From Pristiophorus japonicus (Eukaryota), in assembly GCF_044704955.1 (NCBI RefSeq), contig NW_027252702.1, forward strand, positions 186,001 to 250,000: a DNA stretch of 64,000 nt, given 5' to 3'. The notes below the pieces were generated by a model. That model did not search any database, was not told the origin of the DNA, and saw only the letters and a program-made list of their open reading frames with translations. Shown here piece after piece: positions 27,101-50,799 of the stretch (position 1 is the stretch's first letter; each line of letters begins with the position of its first letter). The translations under genes were made by a program, and so were the position numbers.

Positions 27101-29116
27101 GAAGCTGGATGAGAATTGAGTGAATATAATAAATTGAGTGGCATTAAGAAGAGAAGGAAATGAAATGTACCCTAACTTTAGAGTGGCCAAACAGTTTTTG
27201 CAGAGAGTACTGGCAAGTAGTTTGCGAGTAACTTAGATAGTGTGGTGTTATCAAACTCACAATGAATCTAGTTTTCATACTTTAATATTTACTTTAAATT
27301 GCAGGTTAATTATTGTGCCTGGCTGCTGACAGGCTAGTTGTAACTGGTGTCTTTGTAAAATATATGTGTTTAAGGAACATCTGCTAAGCCACGTGGCAGG
27401 GCGAGAGTTGGCTGAATCTCTTAAATGGGGTGGCTTTCTAATCAAGGTAATGACGGGAATTTGTTGAAAGTGAGAATTCGGTGCAGAGTTAGGACAAGGT
27501 ATTTTAAAACATGGAGCAGCAGTAATTAATCAGAGTAAATCATTTTATCTAACTGGATAATTTGAAATTATATCTGTCTATAACAATATATGTCATAACG
27601 AGGTAGACTTTTAAGAAAACAGCTGGTACCCATTGCCTGCAATAAATGTGGCTTGTGGGATCTCCAGGACGCTACATGTGCCCTGGATAAACAAGTGTGC
27701 ATGTATCGCCTCCAGTTGCACAACATCAAGCTCATTGTTTCTTTGTCAGTGCAGGGAGCACAAGAGGTTGATAGTTTCCTGCAAATTCCAGGAGGTGGCC
27801 ACCCCACAGCTACAGAGACTGCAGGGCTTTATAATTGGATGGACAACCCACAAGGTAGGAAGAGTCCAGTAGAGCAGCAATCCTCCGGGATGGTGACACC
27901 CTCAAACCGCTTTTCAGTGCTGCGTAGCATACAGTATCGGGCACAACCACAGTAATGTGGGGCAAATGAAACACAGGGAGGCACAGCAAAGTGTAGAAAT
28001 GCAGTAGTCATAGGGGATTCTCTCGTCAGGGGACAGGCAGTCGGTTCTGCAACCGCCGACATGAGTCTCCCAAGGTGGATTTGCTCAATTGTGCAAGGGT
28101 AAAGGATATCACTGAAAGGGCGCAGAAATTTCGCAAGGCGAAGGCAGACAGCCAGAAGTAGTGACTGACGACGTAGCTAGAAAAAGGGCTAAGGTCCGAC
28201 AGGCATAGTTTCAGGAGCTAGGGAGGACGTTAAAGAGCAGGACCTGGATTACTCCCAGTGCCACGGGCTAGTGAGTATAGCAGCACCAAGATAAAACTAG
28301 TTTAACGTGCGGCTGGAGAAATTGTGCAGGAGAGAGGTCTTCATATTCCTGGAGCATGGGGATCAGTTCTGGTGCAGGAATAACTTGCAAAATATGGAAG
28401 GGCTTTACATCCAATTGGGCCGGGACCAATGATCTCGCAGTGATGTTTACTAGTGCTGTGGGAGAGGTTTACGCTAATATGGCAGGGGTGGTGCAGCAGG
28501 ATAGAGGACTGGTGGGAAGATATGACGGGCACGGAGAACGTGAATCGGTAAACACAATTGGAATAAAGAGTACTTTAGAAATAGGAGGGTTCAGACCGGG
28601 GAAATGCAAATCAGTGTAAAGTGGTTTTGGAGTGCATGTGTGTAATTTCCCGTAAATTGGTGAATAAAGTTGGGGAGCTGCAGGCACAAGTTGCCACATG
28701 GGATTATGGTACAGTATATTGTCAATAACGGAGACATGGCTCAAATAAGGGAAGGAATGGCCCCATTATGTTGCTGTGCGCTATGCATTAGCAAAACATA
28801 CAGAAGGAAAACGATGGAAGTGTGGAAATATTGATCAAAGATACTGTTACAGCATTAGAACTGGATGGCGTACTTGAGGATTCCAGGACAGAATTGTTTG
28901 ATTAGAATTATGGAACAAAAGAGGAGCCTTTTCCCTTGCAGGTGTTAAGTACAGGCCACCAAATAGTGGGAATGAAATAGAGGAGCGAATTTTCACGCAA
29001 CACTATAAAGTAGTGATAATAGGGAACTTAAATGTTGCTAATACAGACTGGGACAATAACAGTGTAAAGGGAGTATTTCCTGAAAAATTTAGAGGAGAAT
29101 TTTCTTGGTCAGATTG

Positions 29117-31659
29117 GTCAGGAGGGCATCAAACAGGAAATTAGGGGTGCATGCAATAAAGGTGCGGCAGTTATCATGGGTGACTTTAATATGCATATAA
29201 ATTGGGCGAACCAAACTGGAAACAATACGGTGGAGGAGGATTTCCTGGAGTGCATAAGGGAAGGTTTTCCAGACCAATACGCCGAGGAACCAACTAGGGG
29301 GGAGGCTATCTTAGACTGGGTGTTGTGTAATGAGAGAGGATTAATTAGCAATCTCGTTGTGCGAGGTCCCTTGGGAAAGAGTGACCATAATATGGTGGAA
29401 TTCTACATTAGGATTCAGAGACCATGTTCCAAAACATAAAGAAGGGAAACTTTGAAGGTATGAGGCGTGAATTGGCTAAGATAGATTGGCGAATGATACT
29501 TAAGGGATTGACAGTGGATGGGCAATGGCAGACATTTAGAGACCACATGGATGAACTACCAGAAATGTACATCCCTGTCTGGCATAAAAATAAAAATGGG
29601 AAGGTGGCTCAACCGTGGCTATCAAGGGAAATCAGGGATAGTATTAAAGCCAAGGAAATGGCATACAAATTGGCCAGAAATAGCTGCGAACCAGGGGACT
29701 GGGAGAAATTTAGAACTCAGAAGAGGAGCACAAAGCGTTTGATTAAGGCAGGGCAAATAGAGTACGAGAGGAAGCTTGCAGGAAACATTAAAATGGACTG
29801 CAAAAGCTTCTATAGATATGTAAAGAGAAAAAGGTTAGTAAAGAAAAACGTAGGTCCCCTGCAGTCAGAATCAGGAGAAGTCATAACTGGGAACAAAAAA
29901 ATGACAGACCAATTGAACAAGTACTTTGGTTCGGTATTCACTGAGGAGGACACAAACAACGATCCGGATATAAAACGGGTCAGAGGGTCTAGTAAGAAGG
30001 AGGAACTGAGGGAAATCCTTATTAGTCGGCAAATTGTGTTGGGGAAATTGATGGGATTGAAGGACGATAAATCACCAGGGCCTGAAGCTCGGCATCCCAG
30101 AGTACTGAAAGAGGTGGCCTTGGAAATAACGGATGCATTGACAGTCATTTTCCAACATTCCATTGACTCTGGATCAGTTCCTATGGAGTGAAGGGTAGCC
30201 AATGTAATCCCACTTTTTAAAAAAGGAGGAAGAGAGTAAACAGGGAATTAGACTCCGGTCAGTCTGACATCGGTAGTGGGTAAAATGATGGAATCAATTA
30301 TTAAGGATATCAGAGCAGCGCAATTGGAAAGAGGTGACATGATAGTTCCAAGTCAGCATGGATTTGTGAAAGGGAAATCATGCTTGACAAATCTTCTGGA
30401 ATTTTTTGAGGATGTTTCCAGTAGAGTGGACAAGGGAGAACCAGTTGATGTGGTGTATTTGGAATTTCAGAAGGCTTTCGACAAGGTCCCACACAAGAGA
30501 TTAAATTGCAAAGTAAAAGCACATGTGATTGGGTGTAGTGCACTGACGTGGATTGAGAACTGGTTGTCAGACAGGAAGCAAAGAGTAGAAGTAAATGAGT
30601 GCTTTTCAGAATGGCAGGCAGTGACTAGTGGGGTACCGCAAGGTTCTGTGCTGGGGCCCCAGCTGTTTACATTGTACATTAATGAATTAGACGAGGGGAT
30701 TAAATGTAGTATCTCCAAATTTGCGGATGACACTAAGTTGGGTGGCAGTGTGAGCTGCGAGGAGGATGCTATGAGGCTGCAGAGTGACTTGGATAGGTTA
30801 GGTGAGTGGGCAAATGCATGGCAGATGAAGTATAATGTGGATAAATGTGAGGTTATCCACTTTGGTGGTAAAAACAGAGAGATAGACTATTATCTGAATG
30901 GTGACAGATTAGAAAAAGGGGAGGTGCAACGAGACATGGGTGTCATGGTACATCAGTCACTGAAGGTTGGCATGCAGGTACAGCAGGCGGTTAAGAAAGC
31001 AAATGGCATGTTGGCCTTCATAACGAGGGGATTTGAGTACAGGGGCAGGGAGGTGTTACTACAGTTGTACAGGGCCTTGGTGAGGCCACAGCTGGAGTAT
31101 TGTGTACAGTTTTGGTCTCCTAACTTGAGGAAGGACATTCTTGCTATTGAGGGAGCGCAGCGAAGGTTCACCAGACTGATTCCCGGGATGGCGTTGACTG
31201 ACATATCAAGAAAGAATGGATCAACTGGGCTTGTATTCACTGGAGTTCAGAAGAAGAGAGGGGTTCTCATAGAAACGTTTAAAATTCTGACGGGTTTAGA
31301 CAGGTTAGATGCAGCAAGAATGTTCCTAATGTTGGGTAAGTCCAGAACCAGGGGTCACAGACTAAGGATAAGGGGTAAGCCATTTAGGACCGAGATGAGG
31401 AGAAACTTCTTCACCCAGAGAGTGGTGAACCTGTGGAATTCTCTACTACAGAAAGTTGTTGAGGCCAATTCACTAAATATATTCAAAAAGGAGTTAGATG
31501 TAGTCCTTACTATTAGGGGAATCAAGGGGTATGGCGAGAAAGCAGGAATGGGGTACTGAAGTTGCATGTTTAGCCATGAACTCATTGAATGGCGGTGCAT
31601 GCTCAAAGGGCCGAATGGCCTACTCCTGCACCTATTTTCTATGTTGCTGTGTTTCTATG
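29117..31659 (+). mobile_element. Younger CR1 LINE ORF2 (best-preserved copy; 427-aa RT ORF at 30276-31559)
   Basis: [56 protein letters not shown]; internal stops and frameshifts. Confidence 0.93.
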
Positions 31660-31944
31660 ATTCCAGCCCAACAAGGTTGGAAGCAATGCGGAATCTGTTA
31701 CCGGGGCATGGAATGGGGCGAATGCAGTATTATTCAGACAGAAAGCATTTAGGAAACAGAGATAACAATCTTATTAGGGGTAAAGTAGTTATGGAAATGG
31801 ACACAGAACAATCAAGGAAGAAAATATTCAACTTGTGGAGGGTTAAAATCAGTGATTTTAATGGGATCGGGTCCAGGTGGACTGGAATGAAAGACTGACA
31901 GGTAAATCAGTAACTCAGCAAGGGAAGGCATTCAAATAGCAGGC

Positions 31945-32968
31945 AGCAAATGGTGGGGTGCCGCAGGGCTCAGTGCAGGGACCCCAGCTATTTACAATAT
32001 ACATTCATTATTTCGATGAAGGAATTGAGTGTAAAATCTCCACGTTTGCGGATGATACTAGGCTGGGTGGCGGTGTGAGCTGTGAGGAGGATGCTAAGAG
32101 GCTGCAAGGTGACTTGGACAGGTTAGGTGAGTGGGCAAATACATGGAAGATGCAGTATAATGTGGATAAATGTGAGGTTATCCACTTTGGGGGCAAAAGC
32201 ACGAAGACAGAGTATTATCTGAATGGTAGCAGATTAGGAAAAGTGGAGGTGCAACGAGACCTGGGTGTCATGGTTCATCAGTCATTGAAAGTTGGCATGC
32301 AGGTACAGCAGCCGGTGAAGAAGGCAAATGGTATGTTGGCCTTCATAGCTCGGGGAGTTGAGTGTCGGAGCAGGGAGATCTTATTACAATTGTATAGGGC
32401 CTTGGTGAGGGCTCACCTGGAATATTGTGTTCAGTTTTGGTCTCCTAATCTGAGGAAGGACGTTCTTGCTATTGAGGGAGTGCAGCGACATTTCATGAGA
32501 CTGATTCCCGGGATGGCAGGACTAACACCTGAGGAGAGACTGGATCAACTAGGCTTATATTCACTGGAGTTTAGAAGGATGAGAGGGGATCTCATAGAAA
32601 TATACAAAATTCTGATGGGTTAGATGCGGGAATAATGTTCCTGATGTTGGGGAAGCCCAGAACCAGGGAACAAATTCTAAAGATAATGGGTAGGCCATTT
32701 AGGACTGAGATGAGGAAAATCTTCTTCACTCAGAGAGTTGTTAACCTGTAGAATTCTCTTCCGCAGAGAATCGTTGATGCCAGTTCATTGGATATATTCA
32801 AGAGGGAGTTAGATATGGCCCTTACAGCTAAAGGGATCAAGGAGTCTGGAAGAAAGCAGGAAAGGGGTACTGAGGGAATGATCAGCCACGATCTTATTGA
32901 ATGGTGGTGCAGGCTCGAAGGGCCGAATGGCCTATCCTGCACCTATTTTCTATGTTTCTATGTTTCTA
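31945..32968 (+). mobile_element. 5'-truncated CR1 (RT C-terminus + 3' UTR)
   Basis: ORF 31958-32623 PQGSVQGP...FADDT...EYCVQFW; tttctatgtttctatg tail. Confidence 0.9.
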
Positions 32969-35608: not shown

Positions 35609-35766
35609 CTTGTGGAACGTTACACATGTGCTATACACAATACTGAGAATAAACAGGATCACCAGAGCGATCACTGTTGAAGCGGTGCTGCCGTTCTCAT
35701 CGAAGTTTTCTGATCCATCTTCCTCTACCACGTGGTCTCCTGGGTCTTCCCTTATTGGAGGGATTT
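35609..35766 (-). CDS. IgNAR: IgNAR transmembrane exon TM1 (acidic spacer + CART-like TM helix)
   Basis: ttctag|AA ATC acceptor in phase 1; EIPPIREDPGDHVVEEDGSENFDENGSTASTVIALVILFILSIVYSTCVTFHK; AAG|gtaaaa donor; LFxLSxxYS motif of membrane Ig. Confidence 0.9.
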
Positions 35767-38516: not shown

Positions 38517-38899
38517 TTATGTACACGATGTAAAACTGTCGGTTAGAACAAGTGAAACGTTAACTAAAGTAGGTTTACCGTGAGATTTATTGATACTTCT
38601 GATTAAATTCATTTTGAGGGACGGGTGTCCCACTAAGCAGGAGTAAGTGTCGCCGCTGTTCCACTCCGCCGCGGCCAGCCTTAGCCTGCTGCCAATGGAG
38701 CTGGAACCGGGTTTATTCTCCATGTCCGGTTGGCTCGGGGAAGCTGAATCCAAAAGGGTGTCATTGACCATCCAAGCGATGTAAATCTCAGCAGGGTAAA
38801 AACCGCTGGCCAGGCACACCAGTGTAGCCGTCTTCTCAGTGTCAATCTCGTCTGGTGATGGAGGCAGCACGTAGACCTTAGGACGGTGCATTTCACCAA
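38517..38899 (-). CDS. IgNAR: IgNAR C5 domain + secretory tail (internal TM donor after 38579)
   Basis: ttgcag|TT GGT acceptor; VGEMHRPKVYVLPPSPDE...LVC...GFYP...W...YSCLVGHPSL; tail GKPTLVNVSLVLTDSFTSCT* with NVS sequon and penultimate Cys; CAC G|gtaaac donor. Confidence 0.95.
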
Positions 38900-39324: not shown

Positions 39325-39642
39325 CCTTTGTTTTCCTGGTGGAGATTTTCACTGGAGTCGGCAATTCTCTGTCCTCTACGAAGCACAGATATTCAACCCC
39401 ACTGTCCCACTCGGCCGCGGAGACTTTCAGTTTGCTAACGATGGCGGATTTACTTCCGCTCCACTCTGGAGTTAGAGTCTCTACTCCTTCCGTTCTCCAC
39501 CTGCCTCCCACTTGCCAGGACACACGGACGTTTTCTAAATCGCTGAACACGACTTCACACACAATGGTCGCTGTCTGCTGGGTCCAAATCTCTTCAAAGA
39601 CAGGGTTCAGTATCTTTACAGAAATGCCTGCCTCATGACAAT
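39325..39642 (-). CDS. IgNAR: IgNAR C4 domain exon
   Basis: ttctag|AT TGT acceptor; DCHEAGISVKILNPVFEEIWTQQTATIVCEVVFSDLENVRVSW...EYLCFVEDRELPTPVK; G|gtaag donor; the N-terminal Cys is the likely interchain bond. Confidence 0.95.
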
Positions 39643-41169: not shown

Positions 41170-41487
41170 CTTTCGGGCTGCTGATGGTCCCCGTCACAGA
41201 GGATTGTGAAGGTGGATGTGAGGCTGCACAGGTATACTTTGATCCTTTCTGCCATTCCGCTGATGGTAAAACAAGCAGGCTCCTTGTGCTGAAGGTCAGA
41301 TCCTGTTCAAGAGCAGTAGGGAAATGGGTGACATTCACGCTCAATGCAGCTCCGTCTTTCTCCCAGGACACGGTGATGTTGTCAGGGTAGAATCCTCTGA
41401 TCAAACATGAGAGAGTGGCAGTGCTCGTAGTTTGAATCTCCGCTGGCGATGGAGGCAGGAGGCGGAGCTTTGGTCTCACTGGCTCCA
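41170..41487 (-). CDS. IgNAR: IgNAR C3 domain exon
   Basis: ttacag|TG GAG acceptor; VEPVRPKLRLLPPSP...LSCLIRGFYPDNITVSW...YTCAASHPPS; G|gtaag donor. Confidence 0.95.
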
Positions 41488-41562: not shown

Positions 41563-41865
41563 CTTTTGCTTTTCCTGTTCGTTTTGATACCGTCGTCGAT
41601 GATTGACCCTCCTGTGCCGAACACACGAACTCTACCCCGCTCTCCCACTCTTCCACGCTGCATGTCAAACGGCCAATGGTCAGGTACTGATCTCCATACT
41701 TAGTAGCTGGTTCGGTCAGAACTCCTTCAGTCCTCAACTTTCCACCCATTGTCCAAGAGATCGAAACCTCAGTGGGAACTGTCGAGACCACTTCACACAC
41801 CAAGGTGGCAGTTCTATTGATCCAAATTTGTTGAACGGATGGGTCTCTGAGAAATACTGCGAGCT
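41563..41865 (-). CDS. IgNAR: IgNAR C2 domain exon
   Basis: gacag|AG CTC acceptor; ELAVFLRDPSVQQIWINRTATLVCEVVST...W...EEWESGVEFVCSA; G|gtgggt donor; 75-nt intron to C3. Confidence 0.95.
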
Positions 41866-43871: not shown

Positions 43872-44192
43872 CTGATGTGGACCGAATTTCTTTCCACTGG
43901 TTACTTTTGGTTGGGGGGTGTGAGACATGACAGCTGTACACGGAACCGCTCGACCATTCCTGGAGGGGCACCTTAAGGAGGCTCGTGGAGCTAAAGACTC
44001 CGTTGGAATTCTTAGCTGGCGACGAGGTGGTAAAGCCAGACGATATTGCGTTTCCGTTCTTCTCCCAGCTCACGGCAATGCTTTCTGGCTGGTATTCGCT
44101 GATGAGGCAAACCAGTTGCACAAAACCCTTTGCTCTCAGTTCGTCAGTTGCAGAGTAGAGGAGACTGATGATTGGTGGAGTAGGTTGTACTG
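43872..44192 (-). CDS. IgNAR: IgNAR C1 domain exon
   Basis: ttttag|CA GTA acceptor (NAGNAG); AVQPTPPIISLLYSATDELRAKGFVQLVC...W...LLKVPLQEWSSGSVYSCHVSH...KEIRSTS; G|gtgag donor. Confidence 0.95.
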
Positions 44193-44734: not shown

Positions 44735-45650
44735 CAGAAGATCATAAAAACATAAGACATAGGAGCAGGAGTGGGGCATACGTCCCCTCGAGACCGCTCC
44801 ACCATTCAATATCTTGGTTGATCATCGACCTCAACTCCAATTTCCCGTCCGTTTCCCCTCGACTCTAAAAATCTACCTATCTCAGCCTTGAATATATTCA
44901 GAGACTCAGCATCCACAGTCCTCTGTGTAGAGAATTCCAAAGATTCACTGCCCTCTGAGTGAAGCAATTCCCCCTCGTAACTCTCCTAAATGGCCCACCG
45001 CTTATACTGAGACTGTGCCCCCTATTTCCAGACGCTCCAGCTCGGGGCAGCAACCTCTCACCGTTTATCCTGTCAATCCCCTTCATAATATTGTATGTTT
45101 TAAGAAGGTCAACTCTCATTCTTCTAAACTCCAGAAAGTATAGGCCCATTCGAGACAATCTCTCATCATATGATAGCACTCTCAACTCAGGATTCAATCT
45201 AGTGAAGCTCCATTGTACTGCCTCCAAGGCAAGTATATCCTTCCTTAGATAAGGAGACCAAAACTGTGCACAGTACTCCAGGTGTGGTCTCAATAAGGCA
45301 TTGTACAATTGTAGCAAGACTTCCTCACTCTTATAATATAACCCCTTGCAATAAAGGACACGATGCCATTTGCCTTCCTTATTGCTCACTGTACCTGCTT
45401 GCTACCGTTCTGAGTTTCTCACACACAAATCTCTCTGAACACCAACTTTTAAAGGTTTCTCAGCATTAAAAGAATCTGTTTTTTTATTCTTCCTACCAAA
45501 GTGAATGACGTCACATTTCTCCACTCACTGATTCTAGCTGTACCCCTTTGCAGACGGTTTGTGTTCTCACAGCTTACTGTTCGACCGAGCTTCGTATCGT
45601 CAGAAAACTTGGATATATTACACTCAATCCCTTCGTCAAGGTCATTTTCC
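44735..45650 (-). mobile_element. 5'-truncated CR1 in the J-C1 intron
   Basis: ORF 44898-45389 LLRPHLEYCAQFWSPYLRKD; cataag tail repeats at 44740-44760. Confidence 0.85.
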
Positions 45651-48225: not shown

Positions 48226-48273
48226 CAGGTTTCACAGTCAGCGTGGTGCCAGCTCCGTATTCATTGTAATAGC
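48226..48273 (-). CDS. IgNAR: IgNAR J segment
   Basis: YYNEYGAGTTLTVKP (YGxGT motif) followed by G|gtaagtg donor. Confidence 0.95.
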
Positions 48274-48312
48274 CACAGTAAGTCAGTCCCCAGTCAGCCC
48301 CGTCCAAAAAGG
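48274..48312 (+). other. J recombination signal sequence, 23-bp spacer
   Basis: CACAGTA (48274-48280) + 23 nt + CCAAAAAGG (48304-48312). Confidence 0.85.
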
Positions 48313-48622
48313 GTATTTGAGGCAAATGTCCGGTAATAAGTACACCAAAACAACTCCGCTTGAAGGAACTTTCTGATGTATTAGATTCATTCATACATTT
48401 CAATTTCGGTCAGTTTCTTTCCATCCAGATATTTACTATGTGCAGTGCGAAATCCTGTAACAGTGATGAAGTCAATCCATTGATTTAACATCAGACAGAG
48501 CTGAGAGATTTCAACCAAAGTTCCAAATGGAATTAATTGCAGACTTTATGTAGTAACAACCTTGAGTAAGACGCATATTGTAGAGCCACCTTTACGAGTA
48601 GGAACCAGATAACTGTTGGTGA

Positions 48623-48690
48623 GGTTTGTGCTATGGGCTGAGTCACTGTGTTATTCCATACACACATCATTTCACACCAGCACAAGAACT
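48623..48690 (-). other. IgNAR: D2 segment (TGTATGGAATAA, 48651-48662) flanked by 12/12 RSS
   Basis: J-facing RSS: CACAGTG-12-GCACAAACC (48623-48650). V-facing RSS: CACATCA-12-ACAAGAACT (48663-48690). Confidence 0.85.
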
Positions 48691-49004
48691 CCATTGTTGC
48701 AAACATCACAGATATTCCAAGATATTGATTGAAAGTTGCAGTAAATATGCTTCAAATCATTGCCTTTATATTGGGATCCCCGGAGATGTTCATAATTCTA
48801 AGCCACTCACAGAAATTTCTCAAAAAATATCAATATCCCACAAAGATTTTGATTTAACATTTATACAAAAATCACGTAAATGAATAGAGAAAAATCTTTA
48901 AGATATTATCCAGTGCCTGACAGAGGCAGTATGTATGTAACCGTGAGGTTATTAGCCACAGAGAGAATAACCTGTATTAATGTTGTATTAAAAGGTGTGG
49001 GGAT

Positions 49005-49081
49005 AGTTTATGTATTAGGGGGATGCAGGATTCAATACTGTGGTATATCCATACACAGTGACAGAGACCAGTACAAAAAGG
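49005..49081 (-). other. IgNAR: D1 segment (TATGGATATAC, 49043-49053) flanked by 12/22 RSS
   Basis: V-facing RSS: CACAGTG-12-ACAAAAAGG (49054-49081). J-facing RSS: CACAGTA-22-ACATAAACT (49005-49042). Confidence 0.9.
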
Positions 49082-49270
49082 TCCCCTGTGCATTAATACA
49101 TGAGCCTCAGGCCGAGACACAAACTGCAATCCAGATTCCTGCCTCAATACTTCTTGCAACAGATTTTCTTGTAAGAAAGGATGTTATCCTTCCAAAATAC
49201 TGAGTGTCTACTCTTCATGTTCAAGCAACAGGTAAATATTGACCTTGTTCGTGTAACAAAGTGAGCTGAT

Positions 49271-49309
49271 GGTTTGTGTATTGCAGGGACCTTCTCCTCC
49301 ATTGCTGTG
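49271..49309 (-). other. V recombination signal sequence, 23-bp spacer
   Basis: CACAGCA + 23 nt + ACACAAACC immediately after ...TGC CAA GCT TAT GAT AC. Confidence 0.9.
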
Positions 49310-49583
49310 GTATCATAAGCTTGGCAATCATACGTGGCACTGTCTTCAACTTTCAGGTTATTGATTCGCAGAGAAAATGTATTTGCTCCCTTGTTGACTG
49401 TTTCAACATATCGTCCGCCAATTGTGATGCTGTTCCGATTTGATGAACCCGGATTTTTCCGGTACCAGTACGTGCTGTATAATCCATAGCTCGTATCAGT
49501 TAGGACACAGATGATGGTCAGGGAGTCGCCTGTCTCTTTTGTTGCCGTTCTTGGTGTTTGGTCCACTCTTACACCGTAGGCAC
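49310..49583 (-). CDS. IgNAR: IgNAR V exon (leader part 2 + germline VNAR, type IV/IIb-like)
   Basis: ttcag|GT GCC acceptor; [47 protein letters not shown]...[33 protein letters not shown]; short FR2/CDR2 deletion typical of VNAR; only the two canonical Cys. Confidence 0.97.
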
Positions 49584-49720: not shown

Positions 49721-49763
49721 TCGGTACGCAGGCTAAAAGGACCGAAACGCAGAAAATATTCAT
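49721..49763 (-). CDS. IgNAR: IgNAR leader exon (MNIFCVSVLLACVP)
   Basis: ATG at 49763, hydrophobic signal peptide starting MNIF as in IgNAR leaders, phase-1 A|gtaagt donor, 137-nt intron to V. Confidence 0.93.
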
Positions 49764-50139: not shown

Positions 50140-50580
50140 CGGGACCGAGTGTAACGTAGCCAGGTTTGCTGACGATACAAAGATGGGGTGATAAACAACA
50201 GTCTAAGTGAGTGGGCAAAAATAGAATTCTGCCTTTTAATGCAAAGGGGATGGAGTATAAAAGCAGGGAAGTCTTGCTACAGTTATACAGGGTATTGGTG
50301 AGGCCACACCTGGAATACTGCGTGCAGTTTTGGTTTCCATATTTAAGAAAGGATATATTTGCTTTGGACGCAGTTCAGCGAAGGTTCACGCGGTTGATTC
50401 TGGAGATGAGGGGATTGACGTATGAGGAAAGTTTGAGTAGATTGGGCCTCTACTCATTGGAAGTGAGAAGAATGAGAGGTGACCTCATGATCGGATCAGC
50501 CATGATCGTATTAAATGGCGGATCAGGCTCGATTGGCCGTATGGCCTACTCCCGCTCCTGTTCCTTAGGTTCTTATGTCA
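50140..50580 (+). mobile_element. Internally deleted CR1 3' fragment
   Basis: ORF 50211 KGMEYKSREVLLQLYRVLVRPHLEYCVQFW jumps directly to the 3' UTR. Confidence 0.85.
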
Positions 50581-50799
50581 GTTTAACACAGCTTACTCAA
50601 ATAATTACTGCTGAACCTCTAACTCCTTTACTGTGACAAACCGAGCATCCGCACCCTCTGTACCCCCCGCTCCGCGGACACTGACCAGCAGCCCCGAGCT
50701 CGACACCAGCCGCATTAATATAACCAGAGCTGCAGTCTGGGTTGTGCGGTGGTCTCGCGATCTTTGGTCATGTCGTTTGTAAAGTAATTGGACTTTAAG

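What the first reader, a model, noticed from the sequence alone, without database searches (positions are those of the whole stretch)
48226..49310. IgNAR cluster with only two D segments (IgM-like V23-12D22-12D12-23J)
Seen: exactly two RSS-flanked Ds, regularly spaced (V-D1 ~260 bp, D1-D2 ~380 bp, D2-J ~380 bp), with no third RSS pair found. Both Ds are short (11 and 12 nt), so neither looks like a germline-joined D-D. Known: canonical nurse-shark IgNAR clusters have three Ds (two are germline-joined in type III), while shark IgM clusters typically have two. Inference: this is either an ancestral two-D state or a clean loss of one D, predicting three junctions and shorter CDR3s.
Basis: partly seen in the sequence, partly recalled or inferred. 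Interest (0 to 1): 0.75.

Follow-up and report, generated by a model that had tools for sequence, protein, structure and literature searches.

The report
Two-D shark IgNAR antibody gene
This intact, spliced shark heavy-chain-only antibody gene (IgNAR) has two diversity segments instead of the textbook three, as do its unjoined sister copies in the same genome; the layout likely grew by duplication inside the NAR family rather than being borrowed from IgM, and would build the binding loop from three joins instead of four.

Summary
Confirmed. On the minus strand lies a complete IgNAR cluster (leader, type IV V, D1 11 nt, D2 12 nt, J, C1-C5, secretory tail, TM exon). A contig of this cluster is spliced C2-C3-C4. 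Two Ds is this genome's norm: of 8 IgNAR V found, 5 unjoined ones are colinear two-D, 3 are germline-joined, none shows a third D, and only this one is intact and fully unjoined. 'IgM-like' holds for spacer order only: D2 with its signals aligns to the D of 8 of 10 NAR-TCR cassettes and to 0 of 50 IgM/IgW loci; the V signal, D1's 3' 22-spacer and the NAR-TCR V 22-spacer resemble each other. So D1 likely arose by duplication in a one-D NAR cassette. Ancestral versus lost is unresolved (about 50:35). Shorter CDR3 is untested; untrimmed germline pieces give 17 codons. Papers read state three Ds; ten searches found no unjoined two-D IgNAR. This scan noted two-D IgNAR before in a skate and another shark (unchecked notes).

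The parts
49721..49763 (-). Leader exon (MNIFCVSVLLACVP, phase-1 donor)
49310..49583 (-). V exon, VNAR type IV/IIb (two canonical Cys only, no CDR2)
   Evidence: 77% to Squalus acanthias E06 (4HGK), ungapped over 84 residues
49271..49309 (-). V 23-RSS (CACAGCA-23-ACACAAACC)
49054..49081 (+). D1 5' 12-RSS (CACAGTG-12-ACAAAAAGG)
49043..49053 (-). D1, 11 nt; frames YGY / MDI / WIY, no Cys
49005..49042 (-). D1 3' 22-RSS (CACAGTA-22-ACATAAACT); spacer resembles NAR-TCR V 22-spacer and IgNAR V 23-spacer
48663..48690 (+). D2 5' 12-RSS with degenerate heptamer (CACATCA-12-ACAAGAACT); spacer 9.2 of 12 identical to NAR-TCR D 5' spacer
48651..48662 (-). D2, 12 nt; frames CME* / VWN / YGI; homologous to the single NAR-TCR D
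48623..48650 (-). D2 3' 12-RSS (CACAGTG-12-GCACAAACC)
48274..48312 (+). J 23-RSS (CACAGTA-23-CCAAAAAGG); spacer 13.5 of 23 identical to NAR-TCR J spacer
48226..48273 (-). J segment (YYNEYGAGTTLTVKP) with GT donor
43872..44192 (-). C1 exon
   Evidence: best PDB hit 4Q97 IgNAR, E 2.4e-43
41563..41865 (-). C2 exon
   Evidence: best PDB hit 4Q9B IgNAR, E 4.9e-37; spliced to C3 in run X5
41170..41487 (-). C3 exon
   Evidence: spliced to C2 and C4 in run X5
39325..39642 (-). C4 exon
38517..38899 (-). C5 exon with secretory tail ending in Cys-Thr
35609..35766 (-). Transmembrane exon 1

Best explanation
This is an intact, spliced type IV IgNAR minicluster with two D segments, the layout shared by its unjoined sister copies in this genome, and its first D likely arose by duplication within a one-D NAR cassette rather than from IgM. 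RAG would join V(23) to D1(12), D1(22) to D2(12) and D2(12) to J(23), three junctions; V could also skip D1 and join D2, while D2 is obligatory because D1's 22-RSS cannot pair with J's 23-RSS (inferred from the 12/23 rule). Shown: the segments, signals, open exons, splicing of C2-C4, the same layout in paralogues, and homology of D2, its 5' RSS and the J-RSS to NAR-TCR. Inferred: somatic rearrangement of this copy; that D1's 3' signal is a copy of the old V signal; that the two-D state is older than the three-D state of nurse and bamboo sharks (about even odds, see rivals). As the only intact, fully unjoined IgNAR cluster found here, it would supply most of the animal's diverse IgNAR, with cysteine-poor CDR3.
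For: Six RSSs far above chance, no third D. All exons open with GT/AG ends. Run X5 (kind not on record) holds a 623-nt contig joining C2-C3-C4 across two GT-AG introns with 2 differences from this cluster, against 28 differences of the nearest paralogue over the same stretch; a second X5 contig covers V from the exact splice acceptor, 1 silent difference. Paralogues L013, L015, L017, L018 are colinear with the window over V-D1-D2 (78-90% identity in the intervals). Germline joins in paralogues used the same signals: L016 is V-D1 | 22...12 | D2-J, L014 is V joined up to D2's 3' RSS (DNA run X1 holds the L014 join). blastn of V-RSS..J: D2 block hits 8 of 10 NAR-TCR cassettes (65-72 nt, 68-74%, E 1e-7 to 3e-4) and 0 of 50 IgM/IgW loci outside the J exon. 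Spacer identity against column shuffles: D2 5' vs NAR-TCR D 5' 9.2/12 (p 0.0003), J vs J 13.5/23 (p<0.001), D1 3' vs NAR-TCR V 11.6/22 ungapped (p<=0.002), IgNAR V vs D1 3' 11.2 (p 0.006), IgNAR V vs NAR-TCR V 12.1 (p 0.001-0.003); IgNAR V vs IgM V 6.3 (p 0.51), vs IgW V 3.3. 9 of 10 NAR-TCR cassettes have one D; the tenth has two through an exact 427-nt tandem repeat, so D gain by duplication is seen directly.
Against: D1's 5' spacer is as close to IgM and IgW D1 5' spacers (7.7 and 8.0 of 12, p 0.006 and 0.002) as to anything in NAR, and only 4.8 of 12 to D2's 5' spacer (p 0.06); D1 3' vs IgW D1 3' also reached p 0.02 (63 comparisons, uncorrected, and RAG preferences in spacers can cause convergence). 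Whole intervals show no clear homology to NAR-TCR or to each other (z 0-3, off-target pairs as high as on-target), and 40-nt flank tests are weak (V vs D1 3' p 0.02; an unrelated pair reached p 0.007 among 48 tests). The ~380-nt D1-D2 span also occurs in IgM, so it is not diagnostic. IgM and IgW here have the same 23/12-22/12-12/23 order, which is what inheritance from an Ig heavy cluster would give. No rearranged V-D-J junction was seen; sharks make sterile transcripts (PMC5192425, passages). D2's 5' heptamer is degenerate. No three-D germline sequence was available to compare.
Confidence: 0.62

Rival explanations
1. Three Ds were ancestral for IgNAR and one D unit was lost cleanly, by unequal crossover between repeated D units, on the stem of this shark lineage before its IgNAR copies multiplied.
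For: Three Ds are described for nurse and bamboo shark and called general in reviews. This genome's IgNAR Vs plus three Squalus VNARs cannot be rejected as one clade (p-AU 0.249), so one loss would explain all copies.
Against: No relic D or relic RSS pair in any interval. The NAR sister cassette has one D in 9 of 10 copies. In the V tree the orectolobiform VNARs form one supported clade (100/97) inside an unresolved set of squaliform-like Vs, so one gain fits equally well; that tree uses 85 columns, a long-branch root and engineered or mutated clones.
Confidence: 0.33
2. The two-D order was inherited from an IgW/IgM-type cluster (V23-12D22-12D12-23J is the shared heavy-chain ground plan), and NAR-TCR's one-D cassette is a germline V-D1 join of such a two-D NAR cluster that kept D1's 22-RSS.
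For: Same spacer order in IgM and IgW here. D1 5' spacer close to IgM/IgW D1 5'. All 9 NAR-TCR V ends printed carry a 22-spacer and run 25 nt from the Cys codon against 17 in IgNAR, like the V-D1 join of L016 (23 nt); 22-RSS to D span 377-378 vs 380 nt.
Against: IgNAR's own V spacer resembles D1's 3' spacer and NAR-TCR's V spacer but not IgM or IgW V spacers, which a duplication explains and this model does not. No D-region alignment to 0 of 50 IgM/IgW loci. Reviews favour transfer from NAR-TCR to IgW (PMC12227049, PMC4279169, passages).
Confidence: 0.2
3. D1 is itself a heavily trimmed germline join of two Ds, as in nurse shark type III and bamboo shark IgNAR2, 5 and 6.
For: Pre-joined Ds are documented in IgNAR (PMC4622739, PMC8692893, passages) and germline joining is rife in this genome (3 of 8 IgNAR, most IgM sampled). 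D1 coding differs much between paralogues.
Against: D1 is 11-13 nt in all 5 unjoined copies, no longer than D2 (12) or the NAR-TCR D (13); the joins seen here add length (L014: 29 nt between V and the last heptamer); D2 coding is just as variable between paralogues.
Confidence: 0.07

Closest known systems
Nurse shark type I/II and white-spotted bamboo shark IgNAR clusters, V-D1-D2-D3-J-C1-5 (PMC4622739, PMC8692893; passages read)
   Same: One V, one J, five C exons, secretory tail and TM exon; RSS with 12, 22 and 23 spacers; rearrangement within the cluster.
   Different: Two short unjoined Ds (three junctions) instead of three Ds (four junctions); no non-canonical Cys in V.
IgNAR clusters with pre-joined Ds: nurse shark type III, bamboo shark IgNAR2, 5, 6 (same papers, passages)
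   Same: Fewer free D units and three rearrangements.
   Different: Here both Ds are 11-12 nt, single-D length, and the layout is the genome's norm, not a joined exception.
Spiny dogfish type IV/IIb VNAR E06 (PDB 4HGK)
   Same: Closest V (77%), same Cys pattern and J motif; 10 residues between the FR3 Cys and DGAG.
   Different: A rearranged, immunised clone; its germline D number is not in any paper I could read.
NAR-TCR V-D-J cassette (PMC1845163, passages; 10 cassettes in this genome)
   Same: Homologous D with its 5' RSS, J-RSS, and a 22-spacer signal upstream of the D at the same distance.
   Different: One D, V with a-b loop Cys and no FR2 Trp, sits among TCR alpha/delta V segments, no Ig C exons.
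Shark IgM and IgW miniclusters, V-D1-D2-J (PMC5192425, passages; 50 loci in this genome)
   Same: Spacer order 23/12-22/12-12/23.
   Different: No sequence alignment across the D region; VH-type V; paired with light chains.

Membership tests
IgNAR | Single V domain of NAR type lacking CDR2, two canonical Cys, FR2 Trp | tested here: met
   Ungapped 84-residue alignment to 4HGK, E 8e-40; top 30 PDB hits are VNARs
IgNAR | Five C exons of IgNAR type, secretory tail with Cys, TM exon | tested here: met
   Five open C exons, tail and TM; C1 and C2 best hits are IgNAR 4Q97 and 4Q9B; C3-C5 not searched against a library
IgNAR | Minicluster with RSS-flanked V, D, J obeying 12/23 | tested here: met
IgNAR | Three D segments (textbook layout; one review says 'up to three') | tested here: not met
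   Two only; same in 4 paralogues. A layout trait, not what makes the isotype, hence a variant
IgNAR | Expressed, rearranged, light-chain-free homodimer | tested here: inconclusive
   Spliced C2-C3-C4 contig in one run; no V-D-J junction seen; protein not testable
VNAR type IV (IIb) | No non-canonical Cys in CDR1, FR2, FR4; none forced in CDR3 | tested here: met
   V and J have only the two canonical Cys; 1 of 6 D frames has a Cys, followed by a stop
NAR-TCR | a-b loop Cys, loss of WYRK Trp, location in TCR delta locus without Ig C exons | tested here: not met
   Window V has WYRK, no a-b Cys, and IgNAR C exons; the ten C23 cassettes do meet these marks
IgM/IgW cluster | VH-type V and homologous D-region sequence | tested here: not met
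   0 of 50 loci align in the D region at E<=0.05; only the spacer order is shared

The most novel reading that the evidence does not exclude
Two Ds is the ancestral IgNAR state, built from the one-D NAR-TCR cassette when a copy of the V end and its signal became D1; the textbook three-D cluster is a later duplication in some sharks, so D number is a tunable dial on CDR3 length, and this long-lineage shark runs nearly its whole diverse IgNAR repertoire from one three-junction cluster.
Probability: 0.35. Interest if true: 0.68.

Novelty: new variant of a known kind. Interest (0 to 1): 0.47.

Why it matters
Reviews explain the long, diverse VNAR CDR3 by three Ds and four joins, a rule drawn from orectolobiform sharks. 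A lineage whose IgNAR family has two Ds shows the rule is not general, offers a germline reason for short cysteine-free type IV VNARs such as the dogfish E06 scaffold used in drug work, and gives sequence markers (RSS spacers shared with NAR-TCR) that make the old question of whether NAR V moved from TCR to Ig or back testable with existing shark and skate genomes.

Tried and rejected
Third D: sought by mismatch scans, a matrix scan without CAC requirement, self-blastn and the J-C1 intron; none. A conserved block at 48465-48430 scores 9.1 bits, lacks CAC and has no partner, so not counted. NAR-TCR identity for the window: rejected by IgNAR C exons. Assembly artefact: DNA run X1 covers all 30 bins with no joint or loose end suggesting a missing unit, though no single contig spans the stretch and it may be the source sample. 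Interval homology to NAR-TCR, IgW or within the cluster: inconclusive. V tree could not order two versus three Ds. No RNA holder listed by the run search; X6 and X7 gave no cover. CDR3 lengths: protein searches returned 13 mostly PDB-derived VNARs and 1 gene model, too few and partly synthetic to test. In one search my C3 and C4 queries were cut one base off frame, so the stops printed there are a script error; the exons are open. Papers not held: PMC4874517, PMC24375, PMC1458790 and three DOIs; Smith 2012 (dogfish), Diaz 2002, Greenberg 1995 and Jia 2023 were seen only as references and could hold germline D counts. Supplements of PMC11641339 (sequence pages are pictures) and PMC8692893 (no RSS text) gave no germline sequence; bioRxiv supplements were not seen.

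Full report
The observation. The window is G000:C2090:186001-250000. On its minus strand lie a leader (49763-49721), a V exon (49583-49310), two Ds, a J (48273-48226), five C exons, a secretory tail and a TM exon, all open and with GT/AG ends. The V aligns without gaps to the spiny dogfish VNAR E06 (4HGK, 77%, E 8e-40) and has only the two canonical cysteines, so it is type IV/IIb as defined in PMC4622739 (passages). C1 and C2 hit IgNAR structures 4Q97 and 4Q9B best. The likeness to Squalus suggests a squaliform-type shark; this is an inference from protein similarity only. The six signals run V23, 12-D1-22, 12-D2-12, 23-J, with heptamer spans of 256, 380 and 377 nt and Ds of 11 and 12 nt. A matrix trained only on non-IgNAR signals ranks these six sites first; six reach 12 bits against 0.11 in 100 shuffles, and only D1 and D2 form D-like pairs at 6 bits. 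D2's 5' heptamer is degenerate (CACATCA).

Is it used? The run search listed no RNA holder, but run X5, of unrecorded kind, holds a 623-nt contig joining C2, C3 and C4 across two GT-AG introns. It differs from this cluster at 2 positions; the nearest paralogue differs at 28 over the same stretch. Another X5 contig covers the V exon from its acceptor with one silent difference but stops 48 nt before the V end. So the cluster is transcribed and spliced in one run; rearrangement is not shown, and sterile transcripts occur in sharks (PMC5192425, passages).

The family in this genome. A protein search found 8 IgNAR V and 4 NAR-like V (counts are lower bounds); a DNA search with the V-J interval added no further locus. 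Five of the 8 are unjoined and colinear over V-D1-D2, at 78-90% identity in the intervals. L015, L017 and L018 have lost D1's 3' heptamer by a 6-nt deletion; L013 has CAG for CAC there; L017 has a frameshift in V, L018 a stop and frameshift in C1, and no C exon was found in the 18-28 kb fetched downstream of L013, L015 and L017. Three are germline-joined: L016 (V-D1 | 22...12 | D2-J, with C1-C5), L014 (V joined up to D2's 3' RSS, only C4-C5 seen) and L019 (full VDJ, C1-C3 seen in the stretch fetched). None of the 8 shows a third D, though a joined cluster could hide one. The window's copy is the only intact, fully unjoined one found.

IgM-like? The spacer order is the same as in unjoined IgW-like clusters (L098-L101, L105; V class identified by IgW hits) and partly joined IgM clusters here. 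The sequence is not. Against 50 IgM/IgW loci the V-J interval aligned only at the J exon (5 loci), whereas D2 with both signals aligned to 8 of 10 NAR-like cassettes at E 1e-7 to 3e-4. Those cassettes lie among TCR V segments on C23 and have the a-b loop Cys and lost Trp that PMC1845163 (passages) gives for NAR-TCR; whether their downstream V is leaderless was not checked. Nine of ten have one D, V22-12D12-23J; one has two through a 427-nt tandem repeat. Spacer comparisons tie D2's 5' RSS and the J-RSS to NAR-TCR (p<=0.0003), and make the IgNAR V spacer, D1's 3' spacer and the NAR-TCR V spacer a mutually similar trio (p 0.001-0.006) that excludes IgM and IgW V spacers. Against this, D1's 5' spacer resembles IgM and IgW D1 (p 0.006, 0.002) more than D2 (p 0.06), 63 comparisons were made without correction, and interval and flank tests were inconclusive.

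Mechanism and history. Under the 12/23 rule (established knowledge) the cluster rearranges at three junctions; D1 can be skipped, D2 cannot. Untrimmed V end, D1, D2 and J start give 14+11+12+14 = 51 nt, 17 codons, before N addition; a naive bamboo shark library peaks at 15-16 residues (PMC12865624, passages; CDR3 definitions may differ), so shorter loops are plausible but not automatic. E06 has 10 residues, one clone. I favour D1 arising as a duplicate of the V end and its signal in a one-D NAR cassette (0.62 for the whole account). Rivals: clean loss from three (0.33), inheritance of the IgW/IgM plan with NAR-TCR as a V-D1 germline join (0.2; NAR-TCR V ends are 25 nt from the Cys codon against 17), and a trimmed D-D join (0.07); they are not all exclusive. 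A 26-row V tree puts the orectolobiform VNARs in one clade (100/97) but does not reject monophyly of this genome's Vs plus Squalus (p-AU 0.249), so gain and loss each need one step.

Against what is known. Passages of PMC4622739, PMC4279169, PMC12907318 and PMC8692893 state three Ds per cluster; PMC5192425 says up to three; pre-joined Ds are reported for nurse shark type III and bamboo shark IgNAR2, 5, 6. I read part 1 of 4 of PMC11641339 and its supplement text, and passages of PMC12227049, PMC11767079, PMC6312525; none gave a two-D cluster. Ten searches listed no paper reporting an unjoined two-D IgNAR, but the primary germline papers and the dogfish repertoire paper were not held and may contain it. 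Earlier notes of this scan report two-D IgNAR in a skate and another shark and four- and five-D clusters elsewhere; they are unchecked leads, not counted as evidence, and I reuse their idea of duplication inside the NAR family.

Verdict. A real, ordinary-looking IgNAR gene with a layout that departs from the textbook and is the norm in its lineage: new variant of a known kind, interest 0.47. The most useful new point is that its signals tie it to NAR-TCR, which makes the order of D gain testable.

Noticed in passing
G000:C23:10.1-11.34 Mb (L009-L012, L042-L047): Ten NAR-TCR cassettes among TCR alpha/delta V segments; V signals have 22-nt spacers and long V ends (25 nt from the Cys codon), as a germline V-D join would leave.
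   Followed up: partly
L023 (G000:C23:11182000-11191300): NAR-TCR cassette with a 427-nt tandem duplication giving two 12/12 Ds, which could not join each other under 12/23; its V has a stop.
   Followed up: partly
L009, L010, L012, L044, L045, L046, about 115 nt after the V nonamer: A weak orphan 12-RSS (CACACTC...ACTCAAACT) in 6 of 10 NAR-TCR cassettes; possibly a D relic, possibly chance.
   Followed up: no
L016 (G000:C2090:647000-656900) and L112: IgNAR joined at both ends in the germline (V-D1 and D2-J) with one junction left and all five C exons, 410 kb from the window in the opposite orientation.
   Followed up: partly
L014, L019: L014: V joined up to the last D, only C4-C5 seen. L019: fully germline-joined VDJ in frame with a short J-C1 intron.
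   Followed up: partly
L015, L017, L018: A subfamily of IgNAR pseudogenes sharing a 6-nt deletion of D1's 3' heptamer and loss of the FR2 Trp.
   Followed up: partly
G000:C23 14-66 Mb (L056-L096): None of the 41 IgM-type V loci examined showed a fully unjoined V-D-D-J; they are V|DDJ, VD|DJ, V|D|DJ or VDJ or had no call, while unjoined two-D layouts were seen in IgW-like loci. The sample is the best hits of one V, not all IgM.
   Followed up: no
window 48465-48430: Block conserved in IgNAR paralogues in the D2-J interval with heptamer-like words but no CAC and no partner; unexplained.
   Followed up: partly
window 41410 and 49480: The window differs from most DNA-run depth at these two places: alleles or assembly errors; 49480 is silent.
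   Followed up: no
window 29068-32623, 44898-45401, 50211-50636: Reverse-transcriptase-like ORFs of LINE type around and inside the cluster (recognised from recall, not searched).
   Followed up: no
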